Assembly (NCBI GenBank): GCA_035713725.1
Contig: DASTMZ010000008.1
Location: 8,280 to 72,279 of the forward strand
Direction of reading: 5' to 3'
DNA from: Micromonosporaceae bacterium
Lineage (GTDB): Bacteria; Actinomycetota; Actinomycetes; Mycobacteriales; Micromonosporaceae
DNA: 64,000 nucleotides
Shown piece after piece: positions 20,792 through 34,865 of this stretch. A model generated the notes under the pieces. It ran no database searches. It worked only from the letters and a program-made list of their open reading frames with translations, and was not told where the DNA came from. A program made the position numbers and the translations under genes. The number at the start of each line of letters is the position of its first letter. Position 1 is the first letter of the stretch.

Positions 20792-21355
20792 CTACCGGCC
20801 GCTGCGGTAGAGATCACGCAACAGCGCTATCTCCGCGCCGTGGTGGGTCTGCTCGTCGATGAGGATCAGCAGCACCTCTCGCGCACTGCGCGGCCGGCCG
20901 AGATGGCTTGGCCGCGGCGCATCGAGATCACCGTCGTCGGCCTGCGACAGCCATTGCGTCACGGGCGCCCGGCTCGCCCGCCAGTCCTGCCGCGCCGATT
21001 CGGCGTCGGCCGGGATCTCGAGATCGATGAAGTTCCGCTGGCCGGGACCGAACGCGTGCTCCCAGTAGATCCAGTTGCCGTTCGCGAGATGTACGAGCCG
21101 CCAGGCGATCGTTGTCACCGGCGGCGGTTCCGGTGGCGGCCAGTCGTAGTCGATCCTCGCCCCGCCGTCGGCCGTCGGATGCACGGTCCACACCGCGGCG
21201 GCGGGCGCCCAGAAGAACTCCGCATCGGTCAAGCCGTCGAGCCGCTTATCCAGCCGATCCGCAGCGCCGCGCCACTGGTCGGCTAGGAGGTCGCAGGCAA
21301 CCCGCACCCGTCCGACGCTAGCGGAGCGCGGCCTCGTCGGCGACCGGTGCGCCAA
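20792..21355 (-). CDS. DinB-family protein
   Basis: 187 aa. Helical-bundle pattern with a conserved His-containing C-terminal (LIDEQTHHGAEIALLRDLY), typical of DinB_2/mycothiol-type DinB proteins. Confidence 0.65.
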   Translation of the reverse strand: MAHRSPTRPRSASVGRVRVACDLLADQWRGAADRLDKRLDGLTDAEFFWAPAAAVWTVHPTADGGARIDYDWPPPEPPPVTTIAWRLVHLANGNWIYWEHAFGPGQRNFIDLEIPADAESARQDWRASRAPVTQWLSQADDGDLDAPRPSHLGRPRSAREVLLILIDEQTHHGAEIALLRDLYRSGR

Positions 21356-23766: not shown

Positions 23767-24411
23767 CTACCAGCGGCGCAGCCAGTGGAAGTGATCGTTC
23801 AACCAGTTGTGCAACACGGCGATCTCGTCAGTCTTGTTGGACAGCCATGACACCGCGCCGGTCATCGCGAGGATGCTGAGCACGATCGCGACCAGACCGA
23901 ACAGCACGCCGAGACCGACCAGGCTGTGTCCGGTGACGCCGGGGCGGCGTACCTCGTAGAACGCCAGGACGCCGAGCAGCACGGCGATGACGCCGGCCAG
24001 CAAACCGATCGGGGCGAGCAGGCCGGTGAGTGTCGCGGTGATCGCGAGCGTGCCGGCGATCAGTGACAGCGTGGCCGCGGCGCCGACGCGGGTCCACCCG
24101 GTCGTGGTGGCGACCTGCGCGGCGGCCGTGTCGCCATCATCCGAGTCGCCGAAGAACGAGTCCGTGCGATCGCCAGTCATGATGCGCCGGCCGGTGGTCA
24201 TGTCCGACTCGCTGTCCCGGTCGATGACGGTGGTATTCCCGCGCCGCCCGGCGAAGACGCGACCGCGCGACGGCCGATGCGTCGCCGGCTCGGCGCGCAT
24301 CGCGCCATCTGTCTGCCGCTGCGCGTCCGCCGGACCCATGGCACGCTCGCCGCGGTCGTCGACGATGGTCGCGGTCGGCTCGGTGTCGGTCGAAGATTGT
24401 CTGCCTACCAT
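23767..24411 (-). CDS. Hypothetical membrane protein (hydrophilic N-terminus, three C-terminal TM helices)
   Basis: ATG at 24411 is preceded by AGGAGG. C-terminal helices are LSLIAGTLAITATLTGLLAPIGLLAGVIAVLLGVLAF and LVGLGVLFGLVAIVLSILAM. The ORF-track 5' extension to 24771 is rejected. Confidence 0.6.
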   Translation of the reverse strand: MVGRQSSTDTEPTATIVDDRGERAMGPADAQRQTDGAMRAEPATHRPSRGRVFAGRRGNTTVIDRDSESDMTTGRRIMTGDRTDSFFGDSDDGDTAAAQVATTTGWTRVGAAATLSLIAGTLAITATLTGLLAPIGLLAGVIAVLLGVLAFYEVRRPGVTGHSLVGLGVLFGLVAIVLSILAMTGAVSWLSNKTDEIAVLHNWLNDHFHWLRRW

Positions 24412-24640
24412 CGCCTGTCGCCTCCTGACGACTCTTGTCGCGAGAACATGTGTCGCGAGGTGGTCGTGTCGTACCCGCATCCGTGGCGTTTCAACCACCC
24501 ACATCGCCAGTCGGTGCAAGGCGCCCAAGTTGACGCAAGTCGCCCAGGTGACTCCGTCCGGCGCGTCGCCCGCCGCACGTATTGCTACCTGCGCACATAC
24601 GAATGTGGACGGGCGGCCGATCGTTAACGAGTGCAGGGAC

Positions 24641-27600
24641 GTGCCCGGATTGGAGACACTAGGTGGCGTGACTGTCGACCCCACCCTCAACGAGCGCCCG
24701 ACCGCGCAAGCCGCGGCGGTCGACGCGGCGAGGGTGTGGGCCGACTCGCTCATCGACAAAACCGGTCGCAACGAGCTGCTCTACTGCAAGGATCGCGGCA
24801 AGATCCGGTTGGACAACGCGGATCCGGTAGCGGTGACCCGTCTCGTGCACGGCGAGCCGGTGCGCCTGCGCCAGCTGTTCCGCGACGAGGCGGCATACCA
24901 GAATGTCGCGAAGACCGCCGAGTCGATCCGGCGGCGCATCAAGGAATACGACGAGGAGCGCGGCGTACGCATCGGACGCCTGGTGTACGGGTTCGCGACC
25001 TGGGACGTCCCGGCGCCAAAGCAACCGCGCGACGCCGGGCCGGTATCGCCGGCGCCGGCCACTCCTGAAGTTGATTCTGCCGAGGCCGCGATCTCGGATG
25101 GCGCGGCTTCTGCGGCCGCGATCTCGGCTGACGCCGGCTCTCCGGAGGCTGCCCTTGCCGAGCCGGCGTCTCCTGAGGCTTTCTCTCCTGAGGCCGCGGT
25201 GTCCGACGGCACCCCGTCCGACGGCACCCCGTCCGAGGGCACCCCGTCCGAGAGCACGCCGTTCGCCACGTGGCGCACCGACGGCGCCCGTCGCGAGGTG
25301 CGCGCGCCGGTGCTGCTACGCGACATCACCATCATGCATCGGCCCGGCCGGGACGACTTCGATCTGCGTGCCGACCGGGACGCCGAGATCAGTCCCGTGC
25401 TGCTGCACTACCTGCGCTCGACGTTTGGCGTCGACATCGACCCGGATCTGATCGCGGACCTCAACGACGTCGTCGACGACCCGGAGCGCATCACTGAGGC
25501 GCTCGACAAGCTTGCCGGCCTTCTGGTCGACGCGCCGGAGTTCCGGATCGTGCCCGGCATGCTCATCGGCACGTTCCACTACGCCAAGCTCGCGATGCAC
25601 CAGGATCTGCTGGACAACGCGCCCGTCTTCGCCGCCAACGGCCTCGTCAGCGCACTGGCCGGCGACCTCGGAGCGATCGAGCGCATCCGGCGGCCGGTCG
25701 GCGAGGTCACGATCGACCTGCCGGACCGTACGCCGCCGGCCGACGAGTTCCTGGTGCTCGACGCCGACCCGTCGCAGAACTACGTGGTCAACGCCGCGCT
25801 CGCCGGCCGCAGCCTCGTCGTCCAGGGTCCGCCCGGCACCGGAAAGTCGCAGACGATCAGCAACCTGATCGCGACGTTCGCGGCAAACGGTCGAAGCGTG
25901 CTGTTCGTCGCCGAGAAGCGCGCCGCGATCGACGCGGTTCTCGGTCGGCTGACCGAGGCGGGGCTCGACGATCTGGTTCTCGACCTGCACGTGACGACGG
26001 CGAACCGGTCGAAGGCGTACGAGCAGTTCCGTGGCGTGATCGAGCGCGCGCGAACGGTCGACGCCGTCGACGGCGCGCGGCTACACGCCCGTCTCGACCG
26101 TACGCGTGCTGCGTTGCTGGCCCACGACGAGGCGATGCACTCGGTGCGCAAGCCGTGGGGGTTGTCCGTGCACGACGTGCAGTCGGCGATGCTCGAGGCA
26201 CCACCGGAGGCCACCCCCGACCTTCGACTGACCGCGGCGACGCTCGACGGGCTCGGCGCCGATCGCGCCGACCAGGTGCGTGTCGCGCTCGCCGAGCTGA
26301 TCGCGCTCGGTGGTCTCGCACCCGCACAGTCTCGCGGGCCGTGGGCTAACGCGCAGTTCCAGTCGGACGCCGCGGCGACCCGGGCGCGCGAGGCCGTCGA
26401 CGAGACGCGTGGCTGGCTGCCGCAACTGCGCGAGCGTTCCGCCGAGGTGGCGCAGGCGCTCGGGTTCGCCGACCCGGCAACGCCTGCCGAGGCGGCCGCG
26501 ATGACGCAGATCTGTCTTCGCACCGCCGCGGCGGCTGCACGGTGGCGGCCGGAGATCTACGACGAGGATCTCGAGCGCCTCGTGGCGGCGGTCGGTGGTG
26601 CGCCGGCGACGCGACCCGGCGCGCGCATCGGCTGGTGGGAGCGCCGGCGGCTACGCAAGCGCGCCAAAGCGCTGCGCCTTCGTGGCATGCGTGGCGATCT
26701 CGCCGCCGAGCTCAAGGAGGTTGCGTCGGTCGCGGCCGAGTGGTGGCGCATTTCGCGGGTACGACCGCCGGCGCAGCCCGATCTGTCCGCCCTCGCGGCG
26801 GCGAACGACGCGATGCGTACGCTGCTCGTGGAGTTGGGCGGTCTCCTCGCGGCCGGAGATCTCGCGGCGCGCGACTGGTCGTCGCTGTCGACGATGCTCG
26901 ACGAGCTGGCGCGGTTCCCGAACGCCGCGCACGCCGCGGCGCGCATCAATCGGGTGACCGAGCAGCTTCGCGGTTCGGGCATGGGCGACCTGCTCGATTG
27001 GCTCGGCCGGGTCGCCCCGACGTGGCCCGAAGAACGTCGGACAGCCTTCGCCATCGCTGCGTTCGACCACGTCTGGCACCGTGCCGTGTTCGAGCGGGTG
27101 GCACTCGGCGACGCGCACCTCGCGTCGTTCGATGGCACGGCGCATTCGGCGATCGCCGACGACTTCATCGCGACGGATCACGCGCACGCACAGACAAACC
27201 GCGCACGCGTTCGTCGGCGCGTTGCCGAGCGCCTGACCGAGGTGCGTACGCAACACGTCGAGCAGGACATCTACCTGAGCCGGGAGCTCACCAAGAAGCG
27301 CCGTTTGAAGCCGTTGCGCGACCTGGTTCGAGACGCTCCCGAGGTGCTGCTCGCGGCGAAGCCGTGCTGGGCGATGTCACCACTGCTGGTCTCGCAGTTG
27401 CTCCCGCCGGGACAACTCTTCGACGTCGTGGTGTTCGACGAAGCGAGCCAGGTGCAGCCGGCCGAGGCGCTGCCGTCGATGGCAAGGGCTCGCGCCGCGG
27501 TGATCGCCGGCGACTCGAAACAGTTGCCGCCGACCGCGTTCTTTGAGGCCGCGGTCGACGTCGAGGACGAAGTCGACCGCGATCTGCTCACCCAGGACGC

Positions 27601-29266
27601 GGAGTCGCTGCTTGACGCGTTCAACCGGGCACTCGGACCGGAGCTGGCCAGCGAGTTCTACCTCGGCTGGCACTACCGCAGCCGCGATGCGCGCCTGATC
27701 GCGCCGTCGAACGCGTTCTTCTACGGCGGTCGAATGGTCACGTTCCCGGGCACCGCGGTGGAACCACCGATGCGGTTCGTCGAAGTGGTCGGCGCCGAGT
27801 CCGCTGAGGGTACGTCGGCCGCCGAGGTACGCCGTGTGGTGGACCTGATCATCGAACACGCGCGCGAACGTCCGAGCGAGTCGCTGGGTGTCATCACGAT
27901 GGGCATTACGCACGCGACCCGGATCGAAGACGCGCTGCATCAACGGCTTCGCACCGTGCCGGGGCTAGGCGACTGGTTCGACGGAGACGGGTTCGAGCCG
28001 TTCTTCGTGAAGAACCTGGAACGCGTACAAGGCGACGAACGCGACGCGATCATCCTCGCCATCGGATATGGCAAGAGCCAGGGCCGCATGATGCATCGGT
28101 TTGGCCCGCTGAACAACGCGGGCGGCGAGCGACGGTTGAACGTCGCAATCACGCGCGCCAAGCACCGGATGACGGTGGTCGCCGGCTTCCGTCCGGACGA
28201 GGTCGACCCGTCGAAGTTGCGGTCCGAGGGTGCGCAGCGGCTCGTCGACTTCCTTCGGTACGCGGCAAGCGGTGCGACCATGACGCCGACGGTCGCCGAC
28301 GCGGCCGGATCGCCGAGCCCTGCCGTGGCACCGGACGCATCGCCGGATCCGTCCGCGGCGACGGGTGTCACGGTGCCGGGTGCTGTGCTTCCGGGTGCTG
28401 TGCTGCCGGGTGCGGTGCTGCCGGGTGCGGTGCTGCCGGGTGCGGCAGCCGACGGCGCCGGGCTCACGCCGTTCGCCGCGGATGCGCGCCGCCGGCTGGC
28501 GGCGCTCGGCATCGACGTCGCGTGCCACGTCGGCGTCGCCGGCTACTTCGTCGAAGTTGCCGCATTGCATCCGACGAGTTCGGGCCGGATGGTCATGGCG
28601 ATCGAGAGCGACGGGCTGACCTACCACGGCGCACCGACCACGCGCTCGCGCGATCGGCTGCGCCCCGAACAGCTGGAACGGCTCGGCTGGCGGTTCCATC
28701 GCGTCTGGTCGACGGACTGGGTCCGCAATCCCGACCGTGAGCTCGCGAAGATCCGGGCCGCGTACGAGGAAGCGGTGTATGCCGCCGACCGTGCGGACGG
28801 TCGCGTTACGTCAGACACGTTCGCAACAACCGATGCCGCCACGGCAGCAACAACCGACGCCGCAACAACCGACGCCGCAACAACCGATCTAGCCGCAGCC
28901 GACACAGCCGCGACCGACACAGCCGCGACCGACGCTGCGACAACGGCGAACGGCGCAGGAGAGATCGACGCGCTGCCGCCCGAGGTCGACGTGCTGCCCT
29001 CAGTCCTGCGCGGTCCGCGACCGGCGGCCAGCTTCGGCGCGCCGATCACGGAGATCTCCGACGACGAACTCGTCGCGATCGTCGAATGGATCGAGTCGGA
29101 CGGTCAGCTGCGCACCGACGTCGAGCTCAAGCGCGAGGCGCGCGACGAGCTAGGTCTGCGCCGCAACGGCGCGCGGATCGAGCGCCGGCTCGCCGCCGCG
29201 ATCGAGACGGTTCACGCGCGACGCGCCGCCGCGGATACACAACCCGACGGTGATCCGCGTCCCTGA
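24641..29266 (+). CDS. Large DUF4011 / SF1 (Upf1/DNA2-like) helicase / Vsr-PD-(D/E)xK-like endonuclease / DUF3320 protein
   Basis: N-terminal DUF4011-like segment (WADSLIDKTGRNELLYCKD). Walker A VVQGPPGTGKSQT (about 25826), motif II VVFDEASQV (about 27437), GDSKQLPPT, and motif VI NVAITRAKHRMTVV. Endonuclease-like MVMAIESDGLTYHG...RDRLRPEQLERLGWRFHRVWSTDW. The C-terminal ISDDELVAIVEWIESDG...ELGLRRNGARIERRL is DUF3320-like. Start is one of GTG 24641, TTG 24650 or GTG 24668. Confidence 0.85.
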   Translation: MPGLETLGGVTVDPTLNERPTAQAAAVDAARVWADSLIDKTGRNELLYCKDRGKIRLDNADPVAVTRLVHGEPVRLRQLFRDEAAYQNVAKTAESIRRRIKEYDEERGVRIGRLVYGFATWDVPAPKQPRDAGPVSPAPATPEVDSAEAAISDGAASAAAISADAGSPEAALAEPASPEAFSPEAAVSDGTPSDGTPSEGTPSESTPFATWRTDGARREVRAPVLLRDITIMHRPGRDDFDLRADRDAEISPVLLHYLRSTFGVDIDPDLIADLNDVVDDPERITEALDKLAGLLVDAPEFRIVPGMLIGTFHYAKLAMHQDLLDNAPVFAANGLVSALAGDLGAIERIRRPVGEVTIDLPDRTPPADEFLVLDADPSQNYVVNAALAGRSLVVQGPPGTGKSQTISNLIATFAANGRSVLFVAEKRAAIDAVLGRLTEAGLDDLVLDLHVTTANRSKAYEQFRGVIERARTVDAVDGARLHARLDRTRAALLAHDEAMHSVRKPWGLSVHDVQSAMLEAPPEATPDLRLTAATLDGLGADRADQVRVALAELIALGGLAPAQSRGPWANAQFQSDAAATRAREAVDETRGWLPQLRERSAEVAQALGFADPATPAEAAAMTQICLRTAAAAARWRPEIYDEDLERLVAAVGGAPATRPGARIGWWERRRLRKRAKALRLRGMRGDLAAELKEVASVAAEWWRISRVRPPAQPDLSALAAANDAMRTLLVELGGLLAAGDLAARDWSSLSTMLDELARFPNAAHAAARINRVTEQLRGSGMGDLLDWLGRVAPTWPEERRTAFAIAAFDHVWHRAVFERVALGDAHLASFDGTAHSAIADDFIATDHAHAQTNRARVRRRVAERLTEVRTQHVEQDIYLSRELTKKRRLKPLRDLVRDAPEVLLAAKPCWAMSPLLVSQLLPPGQLFDVVVFDEASQVQPAEALPSMARARAAVIAGDSKQLPPTAFFEAAVDVEDEVDRDLLTQDAESLLDAFNRALGPELASEFYLGWHYRSRDARLIAPSNAFFYGGRMVTFPGTAVEPPMRFVEVVGAESAEGTSAAEVRRVVDLIIEHARERPSESLGVITMGITHATRIEDALHQRLRTVPGLGDWFDGDGFEPFFVKNLERVQGDERDAIILAIGYGKSQGRMMHRFGPLNNAGGERRLNVAITRAKHRMTVVAGFRPDEVDPSKLRSEGAQRLVDFLRYAASGATMTPTVADAAGSPSPAVAPDASPDPSAATGVTVPGAVLPGAVLPGAVLPGAVLPGAAADGAGLTPFAADARRRLAALGIDVACHVGVAGYFVEVAALHPTSSGRMVMAIESDGLTYHGAPTTRSRDRLRPEQLERLGWRFHRVWSTDWVRNPDRELAKIRAAYEEAVYAADRADGRVTSDTFATTDAATAATTDAATTDAATTDLAAADTAATDTAATDAATTANGAGEIDALPPEVDVLPSVLRGPRPAASFGAPITEISDDELVAIVEWIESDGQLRTDVELKREARDELGLRRNGARIERRLAAAIETVHARRAAADTQPDGDPRP
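25205..25264 (+). repeat. 15 bp tandem repeat x4 in the helicase N-terminal linker (DGTPS DGTPS EGTPS ESTPF)
   Basis: gacggcaccccgtcc x2, gagggcaccccgtcc, gagagcacgccgttc. It is embedded in a wider low-complexity A/S/P/E linker at about 25070-25265. Confidence 0.9.
28376..28450 (+). repeat. 15 bp tandem repeat x5 between the helicase core and nuclease domain (PGAVL x4-5)
   Basis: ccgggtgctgtgctt ccgggtgctgtgctg ccgggtgcggtgctg ccgggtgcggtgctg ccgggtgcggcagcc. Confidence 0.9.
28824..28945 (+). repeat. Degenerate 12-15 bp repeats encoding a (T/A/D) tract between the nuclease domain and DUF3320
   Basis: TDAATAATTDAATTDAATTDLAAADTAATDTAATDAATT. Repeated acaaccgacgccgca and gacacagccgcgacc units. 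Confidence 0.8.
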
Positions 29267-29268
29267 TC

Positions 29269-29314
29269 GTCAGCCGTTCGGCGGGTCAGGCGTTCGGCGG
29301 TCAGCCGTTCGGCG
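29269..29314. repeat. 15-16 bp tandem repeat x3, each copy carrying the VOC-gene stop codon
   Basis: gtcagccgttcggcgg gtcaggcgttcggcg gtcagccgttcggcg. On the minus strand each unit reads CCGAACGGCTGA (PNG-stop). The functional stop is the copy at 29301-29303. Confidence 0.9.
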
Positions 29315-29732
29315 ATTCGACGCCCTCGACGTAGCGCGGCTCCACCAACACCAGCCAGTTGCCGGAGTTGTCGCGCATCACGGCCTCGACGCCGTACGGC
29401 CGGTCGGCCGGCGTCTGCAGGAACGTGACGCCGTTGGCGGACAGTTCCTCGTAGGTCTTGTGACAGTCGTCCACACGGAGGCCGAGTCCGCCCATCTGCC
29501 CCTTCTCGAGCTGTTCGCGCACGTGCGCGGCGAACTCCGGATCCAGCGGTGGGCCGGGTTCCATCAGCGTGACTTGCAACTCGGGCTGACTCGGATGGTT
29601 GACGGTGACCCACCGGAAGTCGCCCATGGTGGCATCCGTGTTCGCGACGAAACCCAGGTTGTCGACGTAGAAGTCGCGCGACGCGTCTTGATCGAGGCAG
29701 TAGACCGTGACGAGCGAAACATTTGTGATCAT
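29301..29732 (-). CDS. VOC-family (glyoxalase/bleomycin-resistance/dioxygenase fold) protein
   Basis: 143 aa from the internal ATG (MITNVSLVTVYCLDQDASRDFYVDNLGF...), the typical VOC beta-alpha-beta-beta-beta module. Confidence 0.8.
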   Translation of the reverse strand: MITNVSLVTVYCLDQDASRDFYVDNLGFVANTDATMGDFRWVTVNHPSQPELQVTLMEPGPPLDPEFAAHVREQLEKGQMGGLGLRVDDCHKTYEELSANGVTFLQTPADRPYGVEAVMRDNSGNWLVLVEPRYVEGVESPNG

Positions 29733-29737
29733 GTGAT

Positions 29738-30298
29738 TCAGCGTAGGCGCTGCCGTGCACCGCGGGCTTCTTCCAGATTGGTGGATTGCTGCTCGTTGGG
29801 TTGCGGTGCTCCGGACATGCCGCCGTGATCCCACACGCCACGCATGAAGATGTAGCAGCCGGGCACGCGCGACCGGCCACGCGACGCCCACCGGTTGCGA
29901 TACTCCGTCGGCGGCTCACCGACAAGCTGCGCGAACTTCGTCGAGAACGAGCCGAGGCTTGCGTACCCGACGAGCATGCATACCTCTGTCACGGTCACGT
30001 TCGCGTTGCGCAGCAGATCCTGGGCCCGCTCGATGCGGCGCCTCGTGAGGTAGCGCATCGGTGTCTCGCCGTACGTTGCCTCGAAGCATCGCGAGAAGTG
30101 GTACTTCGACACACCCGCCACGCGGGCGATCTGCTCCAGATCGAGTTCGTCGCGGTAGTGCCGATCCATGTGGTCCCGCGCGCGACGGAGGTGGGCCAGC
30201 AACCCGGCCGACACCGTACCGGTCGACGCCGTACCCGCCGACACCGTACCGGCCGACACCGTAGGCCCCGACACCGTGCGCGCCGACGCCGTACCCAC
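29738..30298 (-). CDS. AraC-family transcriptional regulator (HTH-only type)
   Basis: Dual HTH: LDLEQIARVAGVSKYHFSRCFEATYGETPMRYLTRRRIERAQDLL...VTEVCMLVGYASLGSFSTKFAQLVGEPPTEY. Start is uncertain because the 5' end lies within a repeat array. Confidence 0.85.
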   Translation of the reverse strand: MGTASARTVSGPTVSAGTVSAGTASTGTVSAGLLAHLRRARDHMDRHYRDELDLEQIARVAGVSKYHFSRCFEATYGETPMRYLTRRRIERAQDLLRNANVTVTEVCMLVGYASLGSFSTKFAQLVGEPPTEYRNRWASRGRSRVPGCYIFMRGVWDHGGMSGAPQPNEQQSTNLEEARGARQRLR

Positions 30299-34259: not shown

Positions 34260-34361
34260 GGTGGTCAGACAACCACGGGGCGTCGGACCGCGCGGTCGGT
34301 AGCCGAAACTCGCAGACGCTGACCGCGCTCGTCCGGGGCGGCGGTGACGAAGGGGTCGGGA

Positions 34362-34865
34362 ATGCACGAGCGCGACGTGTTGATCGAGGGATTCGGGCGG
34401 CTTCCGGCGCTTGTCATGTCGGCGGTCAACGGTCTGACCGCGGAGCAGCTTCGGTGGACGCCCGCGCCGGGCGCGAACAGCATCGGCTGGCTCGTCTGGC
34501 ATCTCGCTCGTGTCCAGGATGATCACGTCGCCGAGCTGGTCGGCGACGAACAGCTGTGGGTGTCCGGTCGCTGGGCGCCGCGATTCGGTCTCCCGGGCAA
34601 CGTCATGGACACCGGATACGGCCATTCGGCCGCCGACGTCGACCGCATCCGACCGGACGGCCCGGCCGCGCTGATCGAGTATTACGACGCGGTGGCCAGG
34701 CGTACCAATGAGTTGCTGGACCGAGTGACGGCCGACGAGCTGGACCGGGTGGTCGACGAACGCTGGTCGCCGCCGGTCACGCTCGGCGTACGTCTGATCA
34801 GCGTGCTCGGCGACGACCTGCAGCATGCCGGACAAGCGGCGTACGTGCGCGGGCTGCTGCCATGA
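34362..34865 (+). CDS. DinB-family / DUF664 (mycothiol-transferase-like) protein
   Basis: GWLVWHLARVQDDH ... LGDDLQHAGQAAYVRG His-triad pattern of the DinB superfamily. Confidence 0.7.
   Translation: MHERDVLIEGFGRLPALVMSAVNGLTAEQLRWTPAPGANSIGWLVWHLARVQDDHVAELVGDEQLWVSGRWAPRFGLPGNVMDTGYGHSAADVDRIRPDGPAALIEYYDAVARRTNELLDRVTADELDRVVDERWSPPVTLGVRLISVLGDDLQHAGQAAYVRGLLP

What the first reader, a model, noticed from the sequence alone, without database searches (positions are those of the whole stretch)
24641..29266. 1,540-aa DUF4011 / Upf1-like SF1 helicase / Vsr-like endonuclease / DUF3320 protein: candidate single-gene nucleic-acid surveillance or defence factor
The sequence shows four modules. 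(1) A DUF4011-like N-terminus. (2) An SF1B Upf1/DNA2-type helicase with a ~530-aa insertion between Walker A (GPPGTGKS) and motif II (DEAS). (3) A DUF559/Vsr-like PD-(D/E)xK module (AIESDG...RLGWRFHRVWSTDW). (4) A DUF3320-like tail. From memory, this helicase-plus-Vsr-nuclease layout resembles the single-gene Hhe family reported in the 2020 Gao et al. defence-island screen, and it is conceptually similar to other helicase-nuclease immunity proteins. That recollection needs an HMM check. The gene sits among accessory-type neighbours (marR-MFS, araC-VOC, APH kinase). Three separate in-frame tandem arrays occupy its linkers (25205, 28376, 28824), so module spacing could vary between strains. No methylase, second subunit or mobile-element hallmark is adjacent, so a housekeeping DNA-repair or RNA-quality role is equally possible.
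Basis: partly seen in the sequence, partly recalled or inferred. Interest (0 to 1): 0.65.

Follow-up and report, generated by a model that had tools for sequence, protein, structure and literature searches.

The report
Hhe/ProA-like helicase-nuclease gene, core-like setting
This is an intact, selectively maintained gene for a large helicase-plus-DNA-nuclease protein related to two known single-gene anti-phage proteins (Hhe and ProA), but it belongs to a separate, untested, shorter branch and here sits in a stable, ordinary chromosomal neighbourhood rather than a defence island.

Summary
One ORF (24641/24668-29266, + strand; 1,541 or, more likely, 1,532 aa) encodes four modules. They are a DUF4011 N-terminus, an SF1B Upf1-like helicase with a 530-aa all-helical insertion, a Vsr/DUF559-like MTES_1575 nuclease, and a short C-terminal helical domain remotely similar to DUF3320. 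Three in-frame 15-bp arrays lie in disordered linkers.

The Hhe recollection is half right. The protein hits Hhe (554 bits) and ProA (794 bits) in NCBIfam, and PDC-S37 (797 bits) in PADLOC. It falls far below both equivalog cut-offs (2000 and 1500). It belongs to a third, roughly 1,350-aa branch centred on Actinomycetota that has thousands of members.

Context is mixed. Three homologs at about 40% identity lie beside CBASS, GmrSD, SNF2/Eco57I or SMC-like genes. The window's own clade keeps the same non-defence synteny (Lon ... MarR-MFS ... VOC-AraC) in 4 of 4 syntenic genomes. Its composition looks native, and its folded domains are under strong purifying selection (dN/dS 0.04-0.09).

Best reading: an active single-chain helicase-nuclease, probably anti-phage or anti-MGE. 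A housekeeping DNA-maintenance role is not excluded. It is a new member of a known kind, of moderate-to-low interest.

The parts
24668..29266 (+). Whole gene with the most likely start (GTG 24668; 1,532 aa plus stop).
   Evidence: ORF list and translation. The start is supported by the ortholog gene call and the conserved upstream GGATTGGAGACACTAG. GC3 is 0.83, like the neighbours. dN/dS against the 92% ortholog is 0.15.
24412..24667 (.). Divergent intergenic region between the membrane-protein gene (- strand) and the helicase-nuclease gene. It holds a GGAG ribosome-binding site at 24653-24656.
   Evidence: Sequence. Near-identical in L001. No sigma-70-like promoter, LexA box or PafBC-type motif was found.
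24749..25402 (+). DUF4011 N-terminal domain (aa 37-125 and 210-254), interrupted by linker 1.
   Evidence: Pfam DUF4011 scores 28.5 bits on the N-terminal fragment, in two stretches, and 21.9 bits in the full protein. AF2 pLDDT is about 85-96 outside the linker.
25025..25285 (+). Linker 1 (aa about 129-215). It is a lineage-specific, disordered, Ala/Ser/Pro-rich insertion that contains the 15-bp array at 25201-25262 (SDGTP x4).
   Evidence: TRF. Absent from homologs outside the clade. pLDDT <50. Only 61% nucleotide identity and an 18-nt indel against L001. dN/dS 0.42.
25760..25975 (+). Helicase RecA1, N-terminal part: motif I GPPGTGKS (aa 396-403, nt 25826-25849) and motif Ia.
   Evidence: Pfam AAA_11, AAA_19 and AAA_30. 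The columns are invariant in 14 and in 113 homologs. PDB sequence matches to IGHMBP2, DNA2 and UPF1.
25976..27355 (+). All-alpha insertion of about 460 aa inside RecA1 (between motif Ia and motif II). No Pfam family matches it.
   Evidence: No Pfam hit. AF2 predicts long helices with pLDDT mostly >90. Conserved across the family. dN/dS 0.07.
27356..28285 (+). Rest of the SF1B helicase core: motif II DEAS (aa 933-936, nt 27437-27448), III GDxxQLPP, V QGDERD and VI GGERRLNVAxTRA.
   Evidence: Pfam AAA_11 and AAA_12. Invariant motifs. Foldseek matches to Senataxin, Sen1, Aquarius, IGHMBP2, Upf1 and Dna2 with probability 1.0.
28289..28450 (+). Linker 2 (aa about 1217-1270), disordered, with the 15-bp array at 28374-28445 (GAVLP x about 5).
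   Evidence: TRF score 123. Absent from other homologs. pLDDT <50. dN/dS 0.39.
28472..28762 (+). Vsr/DUF559-like PD-(D/E)xK nuclease (MTES_1575, aa 1278-1374). Its acidic residues are E1305, E1322 and D1324.
   Evidence: Pfam 90.3 bits. The AF2 domain has pLDDT >90 and matches DUF559 protein 3hrl and I-Bth0305I 3r3p (target TM 0.75, probability 1.0), and Vsr 1cw0 weakly. E1322 and D1324 are invariant in 113 sequences. Position 1305 is E here where 111 of 113 have D. dN/dS 0.04.
28823..28999 (+). Linker 3 (aa about 1395-1453), disordered, Thr/Ala/Asp-rich, with the 15-bp array at 28847-28933.
   Evidence: TRF. pLDDT <50. 72% nucleotide identity and 21-nt and 12-nt indels against L001. dN/dS 0.26.
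29021..29242 (+). C-terminal three-helix domain (aa about 1461-1534). It is a single copy of the winged-helix-type module that overlaps DUF3320 in ProA-type proteins.
   Evidence: No Pfam hit. hhalign against DUF3320 tails gives probability 85% and 83%. AF2 predicts three helices with pLDDT >90. Conserved in the family. The wHTH assignment of DUF3320 comes from PMC3710099.
23767..24411 (-). Divergently transcribed 214-aa hypothetical membrane protein. It is a syntenic neighbour and is not shown to be functionally linked.
   Evidence: No Pfam family. The ortholog lies next to the gene in L001, L002 and L096.
29301..30214 (-). Convergent VOC/glyoxalase gene (29301-29732) and AraC-family gene (29738-30214). 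They are syntenic neighbours, not part of the system.
   Evidence: Own gene calls. 95-96% identity to L001 genes that carry Glyoxalase and HTH_AraC Pfam hits.

Best explanation
The gene encodes a functional single-chain helicase-nuclease. It belongs to a third, shorter (about 1,350 aa) branch, centred on Actinomycetota, of the DUF4011 / SF1B Upf1-like helicase / Vsr-like nuclease superfamily. The two named branches of that superfamily, Hhe and ProA (= PADLOC PDC-S37), are annotated as single-gene anti-phage proteins.

Likely mechanism, with its basis:
- Shown by sequence and model: an intact SF1B motor, a large helical insertion in RecA1, an intact Vsr/DUF559-type nuclease, and a C-terminal helix-turn-helix-type module.
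- From established knowledge of SF1B enzymes (Upf1, Sen1, IGHMBP2, Dna2): the motor hydrolyses ATP and moves 5'->3' along single-stranded nucleic acid.
- Inferred: the protein loads on unusual DNA ends or intermediates made during phage or plasmid DNA metabolism. The DUF4011 and helical-insertion modules gate the motor. The Vsr-like domain then nicks or cuts DNA, which destroys the invader or aborts the infection.

In this lineage the gene has been retained vertically at a fixed, non-defence chromosomal site. It has also acquired three disordered repeat linkers that change length between close relatives.
For: Family placement.
- PADLOC: PDC-S37 797 bits (E 8e-240) and Hhe 418 bits.
- NCBIfam: ProA 794 bits and Hhe 554 bits.
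- True Hhe and ProA proteins, scanned as controls, pass their cut-offs (2735 and 2225 bits). Other members of the short family score like the window protein, at 830-900 bits.
- An NJ tree places the window clade inside the short family, which is sister to ProA, with Hhe as outgroup.

Enzyme integrity.
- All helicase motifs and the nuclease residues E1322 and D1324 are invariant.
- AF2 gives pLDDT 86.7 and pTM 0.77 for aa 10-1209, with an SF1B Upf1-like core.
- The nuclease model matches DUF559 and I-Bth0305I folds.
- dN/dS in folded domains is 0.04-0.09, against 0.03 for Lon.

Defence link for the family.
- The P0046 locus lies beside SMODS+HORMA+AAA (CBASS).
- The P0117 locus lies beside GmrSD, an SMC-like ATPase and PLD-DEAD-DUF3427.
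- The P0112 locus lies beside GmrSD-SLFN, SNF2 and Eco57I.
- Micromonosporaceae carry at least three separate lineages of the family, which suggests horizontal spread.
- Hhe sits on conjugative plasmids next to DUF262 genes.

Literature on Hhe.
- It is active against lambda, T3, T7 and PhiV-1, and a nuclease-site mutation (E1731A) abolishes defence (bioRxiv 10.1101/2022.06.16.496414).
- T7 class II DNA-metabolism genes act as triggers, and co-expression is toxic (PMC11482910).
Against: - The window gene itself is not in a defence island. Its flanks (Lon, GDSL, LuxR, DinB, MFS, MarR, membrane protein / VOC, AraC, YjbR, APH) are ordinary.
- Those flanks are conserved in all four genomes that share the locus.
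- A second clade (55% identity) and about 15 Intrasporangiaceae/Dermatophilaceae genomes also keep the gene in fixed housekeeping contexts such as mscL, MFS and NhaP.
- The only PADLOC hits in the other 52 window genes are to mad2, mad3, mad8, AriA and BrxL. These look like generic ATPase and Lon-type matches.
- The window has no tRNA, no Rfam element and no compositional anomaly.
- The protein scores far below both equivalog cut-offs.
- One presumed catalytic Asp is Glu here.
- No member of the short branch has been tested. I found no mechanistic or structural paper on Hhe or ProA, and no PDB relative beyond generic SF1B cores.
Confidence: 0.55

Rival explanations
1. Housekeeping genome maintenance. 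In this lineage the helicase-nuclease has been co-opted, or always served, as a chromosomal DNA repair, recombination or replication-intermediate processing enzyme (Dna2- or AddAB-like logic). It would not be an immune protein.
For: - Fixed synteny in non-defence contexts in three separate lineages.
- Purifying selection as strong as on neighbouring core genes.
- Native GC3.
- No mobile-element hallmark.
- A RecQ-like helicase recurs near the gene in 4-5 loci.
- In P. aeruginosa a large DUF4011 gene is a core gene present in every isolate (PMC10250203).
- Vsr itself is a repair enzyme (established knowledge).
Against: - There is no LexA box or PafBC-type motif upstream.
- The family phylogeny does not follow taxonomy, and Micromonosporaceae hold several lineages.
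- Sampled relatives lie in CBASS, GmrSD and SNF2/Eco57I islands.
- The closest named relatives are anti-phage proteins.
- The gene was not shown to be universal in the family or order.
Confidence: 0.27
2. RNA surveillance. The Upf1-like motor acts on RNA (transcript quality control, R-loop removal or termination, as for Upf1, Sen1 and IGHMBP2).
For: The best structural and sequence matches of the helicase core are RNA or RNA/DNA helicases such as Senataxin, Sen1, IGHMBP2, Upf1 and Aquarius.
Against: - The same fold includes the DNA enzyme Dna2.
- The fused effector is a Vsr/DUF559-type DNA endonuclease with a helix-turn-helix-type tail.
- Hhe defence depends on that nuclease.
Confidence: 0.06
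3. The gene is one component of a multi-gene system formed with its conserved neighbours, for example the divergent 214-aa membrane protein or the MarR-MFS pair.
For: - The membrane-protein gene is adjacent and divergent in all four syntenic genomes.
- In another subclade a 280-aa protein always follows the gene, and an SMC-like ATPase plus a small ORF precede it.
Against: - No neighbour is shared across lineages of the family. The largest neighbour cluster covers 15 of about 78 loci and is mscL.
- In L002 and L096 a PLD-domain gene is inserted between the membrane gene and the helicase gene.
- Hhe and ProA work or are modelled as single genes.
Confidence: 0.07
4. A decaying relic with no current function.
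For: - One catalytic-column substitution, D to E at 1305.
- Expansion of low-complexity linkers.
Against: - An uninterrupted 4.6-kb ORF.
- All motifs are intact.
- dN/dS is 0.04-0.09 in every folded domain.
- Orthologs are retained in 4 of 4 syntenic genomes.
Confidence: 0.02

Closest known systems
ProA (NCBIfam NF058533 'anti-phage protein ProA') = PADLOC candidate PDC-S37
   Same: - Same order of modules: DUF4011, an SF1B helicase with an insertion of about 530-560 aa in RecA1, an MTES_1575 nuclease, and a helix-turn-helix-type tail.
- It is the best hit in both libraries, at 794 and 797 bits.
- The ProA branch is the sister group in the tree.
- The window tail aligns to the DUF3320 repeats of ProA-type proteins.
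   Different: - The window scores about half the ProA cut-off (794 against 1500). A true member scores 1570-2225 bits in NCBIfam and 1183-1895 bits in PADLOC, in one full-length stretch.
- The window protein has one tail repeat rather than two, and no Pfam DUF3320 hit.
- It is shorter, at about 1,350 aa without its private linkers.
- ProA-type genes sampled here are proteobacterial or Salinibacter plasmid genes, some flanked by IS elements.
- I could not find the paper that named ProA.
Hhe (Gao et al. 2020 screen; NCBIfam NF042953, PADLOC PDLC02194)
   Same: - DUF4011, a split SF1B helicase and an MTES_1575 Vsr-like nuclease in one polypeptide.
- About 40% identity over the helicase C-terminal part and the nuclease.
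- The IE.DG glutamate that probably corresponds to the E1731 needed for Hhe defence is conserved as E1322. The residue correspondence is my inference.
   Different: - The window scores 554 bits against a cut-off of 2000, and 418 bits against 4299 for a true Hhe in PADLOC.
- Hhe is 1,911 aa with an insertion of about 900 aa between Walker A and motif II.
- The Hhe tail does not match the window's tail profile (P 0.24).
- Hhe is plasmid-borne and sits next to DUF262 genes and IS elements.
Eukaryotic and viral SF1B Upf1-like helicases (Upf1, Sen1/Senataxin, IGHMBP2, Aquarius, Dna2, nsp13)
   Same: The two-RecA motor, its motifs and its fold. Like Dna2, the window protein joins an SF1B motor to a PD-(D/E)xK-type nuclease in one chain.
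   Different: - Only 12-22% identity.
- The nuclease is C-terminal and of the Vsr/DUF559 type, not the Dna2 RecB-like N-terminal domain.
- The 460-aa helical insertion and the DUF4011 module gave no separate structural match in the whole-model search.
MTES_1575-type Vsr REase plus wHTH module (Anantharaman et al. 2013, PMC3710099)
   Same: A Vsr-family REase domain followed by a wHTH that overlaps DUF3320, as described for Microbacterium testaceum MTES_1575.
   Different: In MTES_1575 the module is fused to HEPN and transglutaminase domains. Here it is fused to DUF4011 and an SF1B helicase.

Membership tests
Hhe (NCBIfam NF042953 equivalog) | Whole-protein score at or above the curated cut-off (2000 bits) | tested here: not met
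   553.6 bits. The control Klebsiella Hhe scores 2735 bits.
Hhe | DUF4011 N-terminus, split SF1B helicase and MTES_1575 nuclease in one chain | tested here: met
Hhe | Size of about 1,800-1,900 aa, with about 900 aa between Walker A and motif II | tested here: not met
   1,532-1,541 aa, of which about 190 aa are private linkers. The gap is 530 aa.
Hhe | Protects against phage when expressed alone, and depends on the nuclease | not testable with these tools
   Known only for E. coli Hhe.
ProA (NCBIfam NF058533 equivalog) | Whole-protein score at or above the curated cut-off (1500 bits) | tested here: not met
   794.1 bits in 3 stretches. Controls score 2225 and 1570 bits.
ProA / PDC-S37 | Significant match to the PADLOC PDC-S37 model | tested here: inconclusive
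   E 8e-240 and 797 bits, but fragmented into 3 stretches. A true member scores 1895 bits in one full-length stretch. PADLOC's own coverage thresholds could not be applied here.
ProA / PDC-S37 | C-terminal DUF3320 (wHTH) region | tested here: inconclusive
   No Pfam hit at E<=1. Profile-profile probability is 85% and 83% for a single copy. ProA-type L086 has Pfam DUF3320 at 47 bits.
DUF4011 / SF1B helicase / Vsr-nuclease superfamily (short, actinobacteria-centred branch) | Full-length collinear homology to the roughly 1,350-aa proteins with DUF4011, AAA_11/12 and MTES_1575 | tested here: met
   More than 5,600 hits, the best 120 listed sharing the same Pfam architecture. Full-length alignments. 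7,760 50%-identity cluster representatives at E<=1e-30.
SF1B Upf1-like helicase | Motifs I, Ia, II, III, V and VI, and a two-RecA fold | tested here: met
SF1B Upf1-like helicase | ATP-dependent 5'->3' translocation | not testable with these tools
   Inferred from the family.
Vsr/DUF559-like PD-(D/E)xK nuclease (MTES_1575) | Pfam match above the cut-off, the fold, and conserved acidic residues | tested here: met
   90.3 bits. Fold matches to 3hrl and 3r3p. E1322 and D1324 are invariant, and position 1305 is E instead of D.
Defence-island gene (guilt by association) | This copy lies among known defence genes or on a mobile element | tested here: not met
Defence-island gene (guilt by association) | Family members are enriched near defence genes | tested here: inconclusive
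   3 of 3 sampled isolates from the 40%-identity group are in defence islands. Several lineages are in housekeeping contexts. The PADLOC scan of 258 neighbours gave only family counts, and many hits were generic.

The most novel reading that the evidence does not exclude
The window clade, and perhaps the Intrasporangiaceae clade, could be a 'domesticated' offshoot of an anti-phage helicase-nuclease family. It would have become a fixed, core-like genome-surveillance enzyme of Micromonosporaceae. Its rapidly length-variable disordered repeat linkers would tune the spacing between sensor, motor, nuclease and DNA-binding modules. This parallels the universally conserved DUF4011 gene that flanks defence hotspot cDHS1 in P. 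aeruginosa. It would be a case of an immune effector turning into housekeeping machinery, or the reverse.
Probability: 0.15. Interest if true: 0.6.

Novelty: new member of a known kind. Interest (0 to 1): 0.35.

Why it matters
The DUF4011 helicase-nuclease superfamily is very large. Thousands of 50%-identity clusters match the window protein. I found functional data in the searchable literature for the Hhe branch only, and no mechanism or structure for any member.

This gene shows that current curated models (Hhe, ProA) leave a big actinobacterial branch unnamed. NCBI calls its members 'AAA domain-containing protein'. Within that branch some copies sit in defence islands and others are stably inherited like core genes.

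If the branch is immune, it adds a common single-gene system to Actinomycetota, which are antibiotic producers and phage-therapy targets. If the stable copies are housekeeping, the family would be a tractable example of exchange between immunity and DNA maintenance. For this particular window, the practical result is a better annotation, not a new principle.

Tried and rejected
- Literature. No paper was found for 'PDC-S37' or for ProA as an anti-phage protein. DUF4011 and DUF3320 are mentioned only in passing.
- Regulatory signals. There is no sigma-70-like promoter, and the only terminator-like hit lies inside array 3 on the wrong strand. No inverted repeat is present after the stop codon. 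The post-stop repeat folds no better than shuffles (z 0.58). There is no LexA or PafBC-type motif upstream. The window has no Rfam family and no tRNA.
- Fold search of the 1,200-aa model. It returned only SF1B cores, so it says nothing about DUF4011 or the helical insertion on their own. The model could not be cropped.
- PADLOC scan of 258 neighbours from 46 non-redundant loci. The tool reports only family counts, not which protein matched. The window-only control showed that mad2, mad3, mad8, AriA and BrxL hits arise from ordinary genes. I therefore do not claim a quantitative enrichment.
- Locus-occupancy test through the neighbouring MFS gene. One further genome has the same synteny and carries the gene. 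Two others have the MarR-MFS pair in unrelated contexts, so they are uninformative.
- Failed look-ups. Context look-ups for P0009 (Krasilnikovia) and P0031 (Aeromicrobium) found no record.
- Phage origin rejected. Only one weak hit was found in 50,697 phage records.
- The PLD-domain gene next to the ortholog in L002 and L096 was considered as a partner nuclease. It is absent from the window and from L001, so it is not part of the unit.


Full report
**1. The object**

The frame is open from 23987 to 29266. Upstream of about 24412 that frame overlaps a minus-strand gene for a 214-aa membrane protein, so the real gene starts later.

I favour GTG 24668, which gives 1,532 aa, for three reasons:
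- The public gene call for the 92%-identical ortholog starts at the equivalent codon.
- The DNA alignment shows a 27-nt 'gap' exactly there.
- The 64% ortholog has an ATG in the same register after a conserved GGATTGGAGACACTAG that contains a GGAG ribosome-binding site.

Residue numbers below use the 24641 start.

**2. Modules**

Pfam results:
- MTES_1575: aa 1278-1374, 90.3 bits against a cut-off of 38.2.
- AAA_11: 68 bits, in two stretches.
- AAA_12: 38 bits.
- DUF4011: 21.9 bits in the whole protein, just below the 22.2 cut-off.

The N-terminal 380 aa scanned alone give DUF4011 at 28.5 bits, in two pieces either side of a roughly 90-aa insertion.

Walker A (GPPGTGKS, 396-403) and motif II (DEAS, 933-936) are 530 aa apart. 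Motifs Ia, III, V and VI are present, and they are invariant across 14 and 113 homologs.

AlphaFold models:
- aa 10-1209: mean pLDDT 86.7, pTM 0.77. It shows an SF1B two-RecA core and an all-helical insertion of about 460 aa inside RecA1. Only aa about 129-215 and a short acidic loop are disordered.
- Foldseek on this model finds Senataxin, Sen1, Aquarius, IGHMBP2, Upf1, Dna2 and nsp13. A PDB sequence search finds the Sen1, IGHMBP2, Upf1 and DNA2 group. No closer relative has a solved structure.
- aa 1210-1541: a nuclease domain with pLDDT >90. It matches the DUF559 protein NGO0050 (3hrl) and the Vsr-like homing endonuclease I-Bth0305I (3r3p), both with target TM about 0.75 and probability 1.0. 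It matches Vsr (1cw0) more weakly. A confident three-helix bundle lies at the C-terminus, and two disordered linkers separate the domains.

Pfam does not recognise the tail. A profile of 103 homolog tails aligns in register to both helical repeats of six DUF3320-bearing tails (probability 85% and 83%, P 7e-6 and 9e-6). The reversed profile gives P 0.2. Anantharaman et al. (PMC3710099) describe DUF3320 as overlapping a wHTH that follows the MTES_1575-type Vsr REase.

In the nuclease, E1322, D1324, H1310, Y1328, R1335, R1337, D1338, R1339 and others are invariant in 113 sequences. The first acidic column (1305) is Glu in the window and its 92% relative, but Asp in 111 of 113 sequences.

**3. The three arrays**

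TRF confirms 15-bp arrays at three sites:
- 25201-25262, x4.1.
- 28374-28445, x4.8.
- 28847-28933, about x5.5.

All are in frame and encode pentapeptide repeats. Each lies in a larger insertion that is absent from homologs outside the window's immediate clade and that AlphaFold predicts to be disordered.

Against the 92% ortholog these segments are the divergence hot spots. Nucleotide identity there is 61% and 72%, against 93-98% elsewhere, with in-frame indels of 18, 21 and 12 nt. Their dN/dS is 0.26-0.42, against 0.04-0.09 in the folded domains.

**4. Which family**

The window protein's best hits:

| Library | Model | Window score | Curated cut-off |
|---|---|---|---|
| PADLOC | PDC-S37 | 797 bits, E 8e-240 | none given |
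| PADLOC | Hhe | 418 bits | none given |
| NCBIfam | ProA | 794 bits | 1500 |
| NCBIfam | Hhe | 554 bits | 2000 |

I calibrated these scores with real members taken from plasmid records:
- A 1,911-aa Klebsiella protein annotated as Hhe scores 2735 bits (NCBIfam) and 4299 bits (PADLOC).
- A 1,963-aa Klebsiella 'DUF3320 domain-containing protein' scores 2225 bits for ProA.
- A 1,596-aa Azospirillum protein scores 1570 bits for ProA and 1895 bits for PDC-S37, across the full length of that model.

PDC-S37 and ProA therefore describe the same branch.

Ordinary members of the window's family (P0117, P0008) score 830-900 bits, like the window protein. An NJ tree on 1,231 trimmed columns, with Hhe set as the outgroup, recovers a ProA group and a 'short' family of about 1,350-aa proteins. 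In the short family, Sphingobacteriales, Acidobacteriota and Chloroflexota branch early and Actinomycetota form the crown. The window clade is monophyletic inside that crown.

The family is large:
- More than 5,600 90%-identity clusters at E<=1e-10, among the 8,000 candidates scored.
- 7,760 50%-identity representatives at E<=1e-30. This count includes more distant SF1B relatives. The best 150 all have E below 1e-154 and are mostly 1,300-1,400 aa long.

Public names for these proteins are 'AAA domain-containing protein', 'DUF4011 domain-containing protein' or 'very-short-patch-repair endonuclease'.

**5. Context of this copy**

The window, the 92% ortholog (a Micromonosporaceae MAG), the 64% ortholog and a further genome found through the neighbouring MFS gene all share this gene order: Lon - hypothetical - GDSL lipase - LuxR - DinB - (APH) - MFS - MarR - membrane protein - (PLD-domain gene) - helicase-nuclease - VOC - AraC - YjbR. 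All four genomes that share the locus carry the gene.

Two other genomes have the MarR-MFS pair in unrelated contexts and are uninformative.

Other evidence that the locus is native:
- GC content and GC3 match the surroundings.
- The window has no tRNA and no Rfam element.
- A PADLOC scan of the other 52 window genes gives only mad2, mad3, mad8, AriA and BrxL hits. I read these as generic ATPase and Lon-type matches, because the window encodes a Lon protease. The tool does not say which genes matched.

Between the window and the 64% ortholog, the helicase-nuclease is somewhat more diverged (64-70% identity) than most flanking proteins (72-83%).

**6. Context of relatives**

The 55% clade has its own conserved setting in two genomes: CrcB x2, NUDIX and an epimerase upstream; DUF2795, MFS and a RecQ-like helicase downstream.

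About 15 Intrasporangiaceae/Dermatophilaceae genomes share mscL, a SAF-domain protein, an MFS transporter and a transporter-like membrane protein (no match run) around the gene. Dactylosporangium has a rhamnosidase next door, and Intrasporangium calvum a carboxypeptidase.

By contrast, all three named isolates of the roughly 40%-identity group for which Pfam-labelled neighbourhoods were available are in obvious defence islands:
- Nocardioides carbamazepini: SMODS + bacterial HORMA + AAA (CBASS), DUF6602, a RecQ-like helicase, and an RNase_T-Lsr2 gene.
- Micromonospora sp. WMMC415: GmrSD, an SF1 helicase, an SMC-like ATPase, and PLD-DEAD-DUF3427.
- Microlunatus spumicola: an SF1 helicase, GmrSD-SLFN, SNF2, and an Eco57I-like gene.

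Micromonosporaceae carry at least three phylogenetically separate versions of the family. Hhe- and ProA-type relatives occur on 512 plasmid records, and only one weak hit exists among phage records.

My neighbour scan against PADLOC did return strong hits to type I and type II R-M, SoFic, a CARF-nuclease model and several PDC models. It reports only counts and includes generic matches, so I do not derive an enrichment figure from it. No neighbour is conserved across the whole family, which fits a single-gene unit.

**7. How it probably works**

Shown here:
- An intact SF1B motor.
- An intact Vsr/DUF559-type nuclease.
- A helix-turn-helix-type tail.
- Two conserved modules of unknown fold class: DUF4011 and the helical insertion, which occupies the position between motifs Ia and II.
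- Strong purifying selection on all of them. dN/dS is 0.04-0.09 in most folded domains and 0.16 in the tail, compared with 0.03 for Lon and 0.12 for MFS.

From established knowledge, SF1B enzymes translocate 5'->3' on single strands.

From papers on Hhe:
- Protection against lambda, T3, T7 and PhiV-1 requires the nuclease glutamate.
- Several T7 class II DNA-metabolism genes and Bas63 g40 behave as triggers, and co-expression is toxic. The authors suggest Hhe senses a consequence of phage DNA metabolism rather than a specific protein.

My inference is that the window protein surveys DNA. It engages ends or intermediates typical of invading or replicating foreign DNA, uses ATP to track along them, and cuts with the Vsr-like domain. 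DUF4011, the insertion and the tail would provide recognition or autoinhibition. I put 0.55 on an immune role.

The main rival, at 0.27, is a housekeeping DNA-maintenance role. It is favoured by the fixed synteny and by the precedent of the core DUF4011 gene flanking hotspot cDHS1 in P. aeruginosa. It is weakened by the absence of SOS or PafBC-type motifs, by the family's non-taxonomic tree, and by the defence-island relatives. RNA surveillance, a multi-gene system and a relic are minor alternatives.

**8. Verdict**

There are strong defence-model hits, and family contexts are mixed.

The gene is not an Hhe and not a ProA by the curated criteria. It is a new member of a known kind, belonging to a large and unnamed sister branch.

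The interesting residue consists of three points:
- The contrast between defence-island and core-like copies.
- The private, fast-changing linkers.
- The D-to-E change at position 1305.

I score interest at 0.35.

Noticed in passing
L036:14065-14907, and the orthologous genes in L071, L077, L079 and L060: In one subclade of the family (Micromonospora, Streptomyces fumigatiscleroticus, Saccharomonospora), a 276-280-aa protein always lies immediately downstream of the helicase-nuclease gene. It is 48-87% identical across these orders and has no Pfam or PDB match. It may be a partner gene. It contains an RNFVHPRH stretch that loosely resembles an HEPN Rx4-6H motif, which I did not test.
   Followed up: partly
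L092:7118-10008, and L077 and L071 upstream of the focal gene: In three Micromonospora genomes an 800-830-aa SMC_N/AAA_23 ATPase and an ORF of 84-135 aa directly precede the DUF4011 helicase-nuclease, overlapping it by 8 nt in L092. This suggests an operonic multi-gene variant of the family.
   Followed up: partly
P0098 (1,799 aa); L093:14091-15728 and L043: One homolog cluster has an RNase_T (DnaQ-like exonuclease) domain fused to the helicase-nuclease. In two Nocardioides genomes an RNase_T-Lsr2 gene lies directly downstream. This is a recurrent link to a 3'-5' exonuclease.
   Followed up: no
window 28553-28555 (codon for aa 1305): The first acidic column of the nuclease (I-D-F in 111 of 113 homologs) is Glu in the window protein and in its 92% relative only. 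The change is conservative, but it is private to this lineage.
   Followed up: partly
window 29269-29314: Three tandem copies of a 15-16-bp unit (GTCAGCCGTTCGGCG) start 3 nt after the stop codon and run into the 3' end of the convergent VOC gene. Each copy carries TCA, which is TGA on the minus strand. The region has no significant RNA fold (z 0.58).
   Followed up: partly
L002:8234-9853 and L096:6995-8299: A gene with PLD motifs (539 and 434 aa) is inserted between the membrane-protein gene and the helicase-nuclease gene in two syntenic genomes. It is absent from the window and from L001. This is the only indel seen right next to the gene, and it might be a cardiolipin-synthase-like enzyme rather than a nuclease.
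   Followed up: partly
window 24414-24441: A 10-bp unit (CCTGTCGCCT) is repeated 2.8 times next to the start of the divergent membrane-protein gene. It is identical in the 92% relative.
   Followed up: no
window 20792-21307 and 34344-34865: Two DinB_2 / mycothiol-S-transferase-family genes lie within 14 kb. This fits an actinobacterial (mycothiol-using) host.
   Followed up: no
L035 (CAYHHL010000193.1): A contig labelled 'uncultured Enterobacteriaceae bacterium' carries a short-family member at 66% GC. It is probably a mis-binned contig.
   Followed up: no
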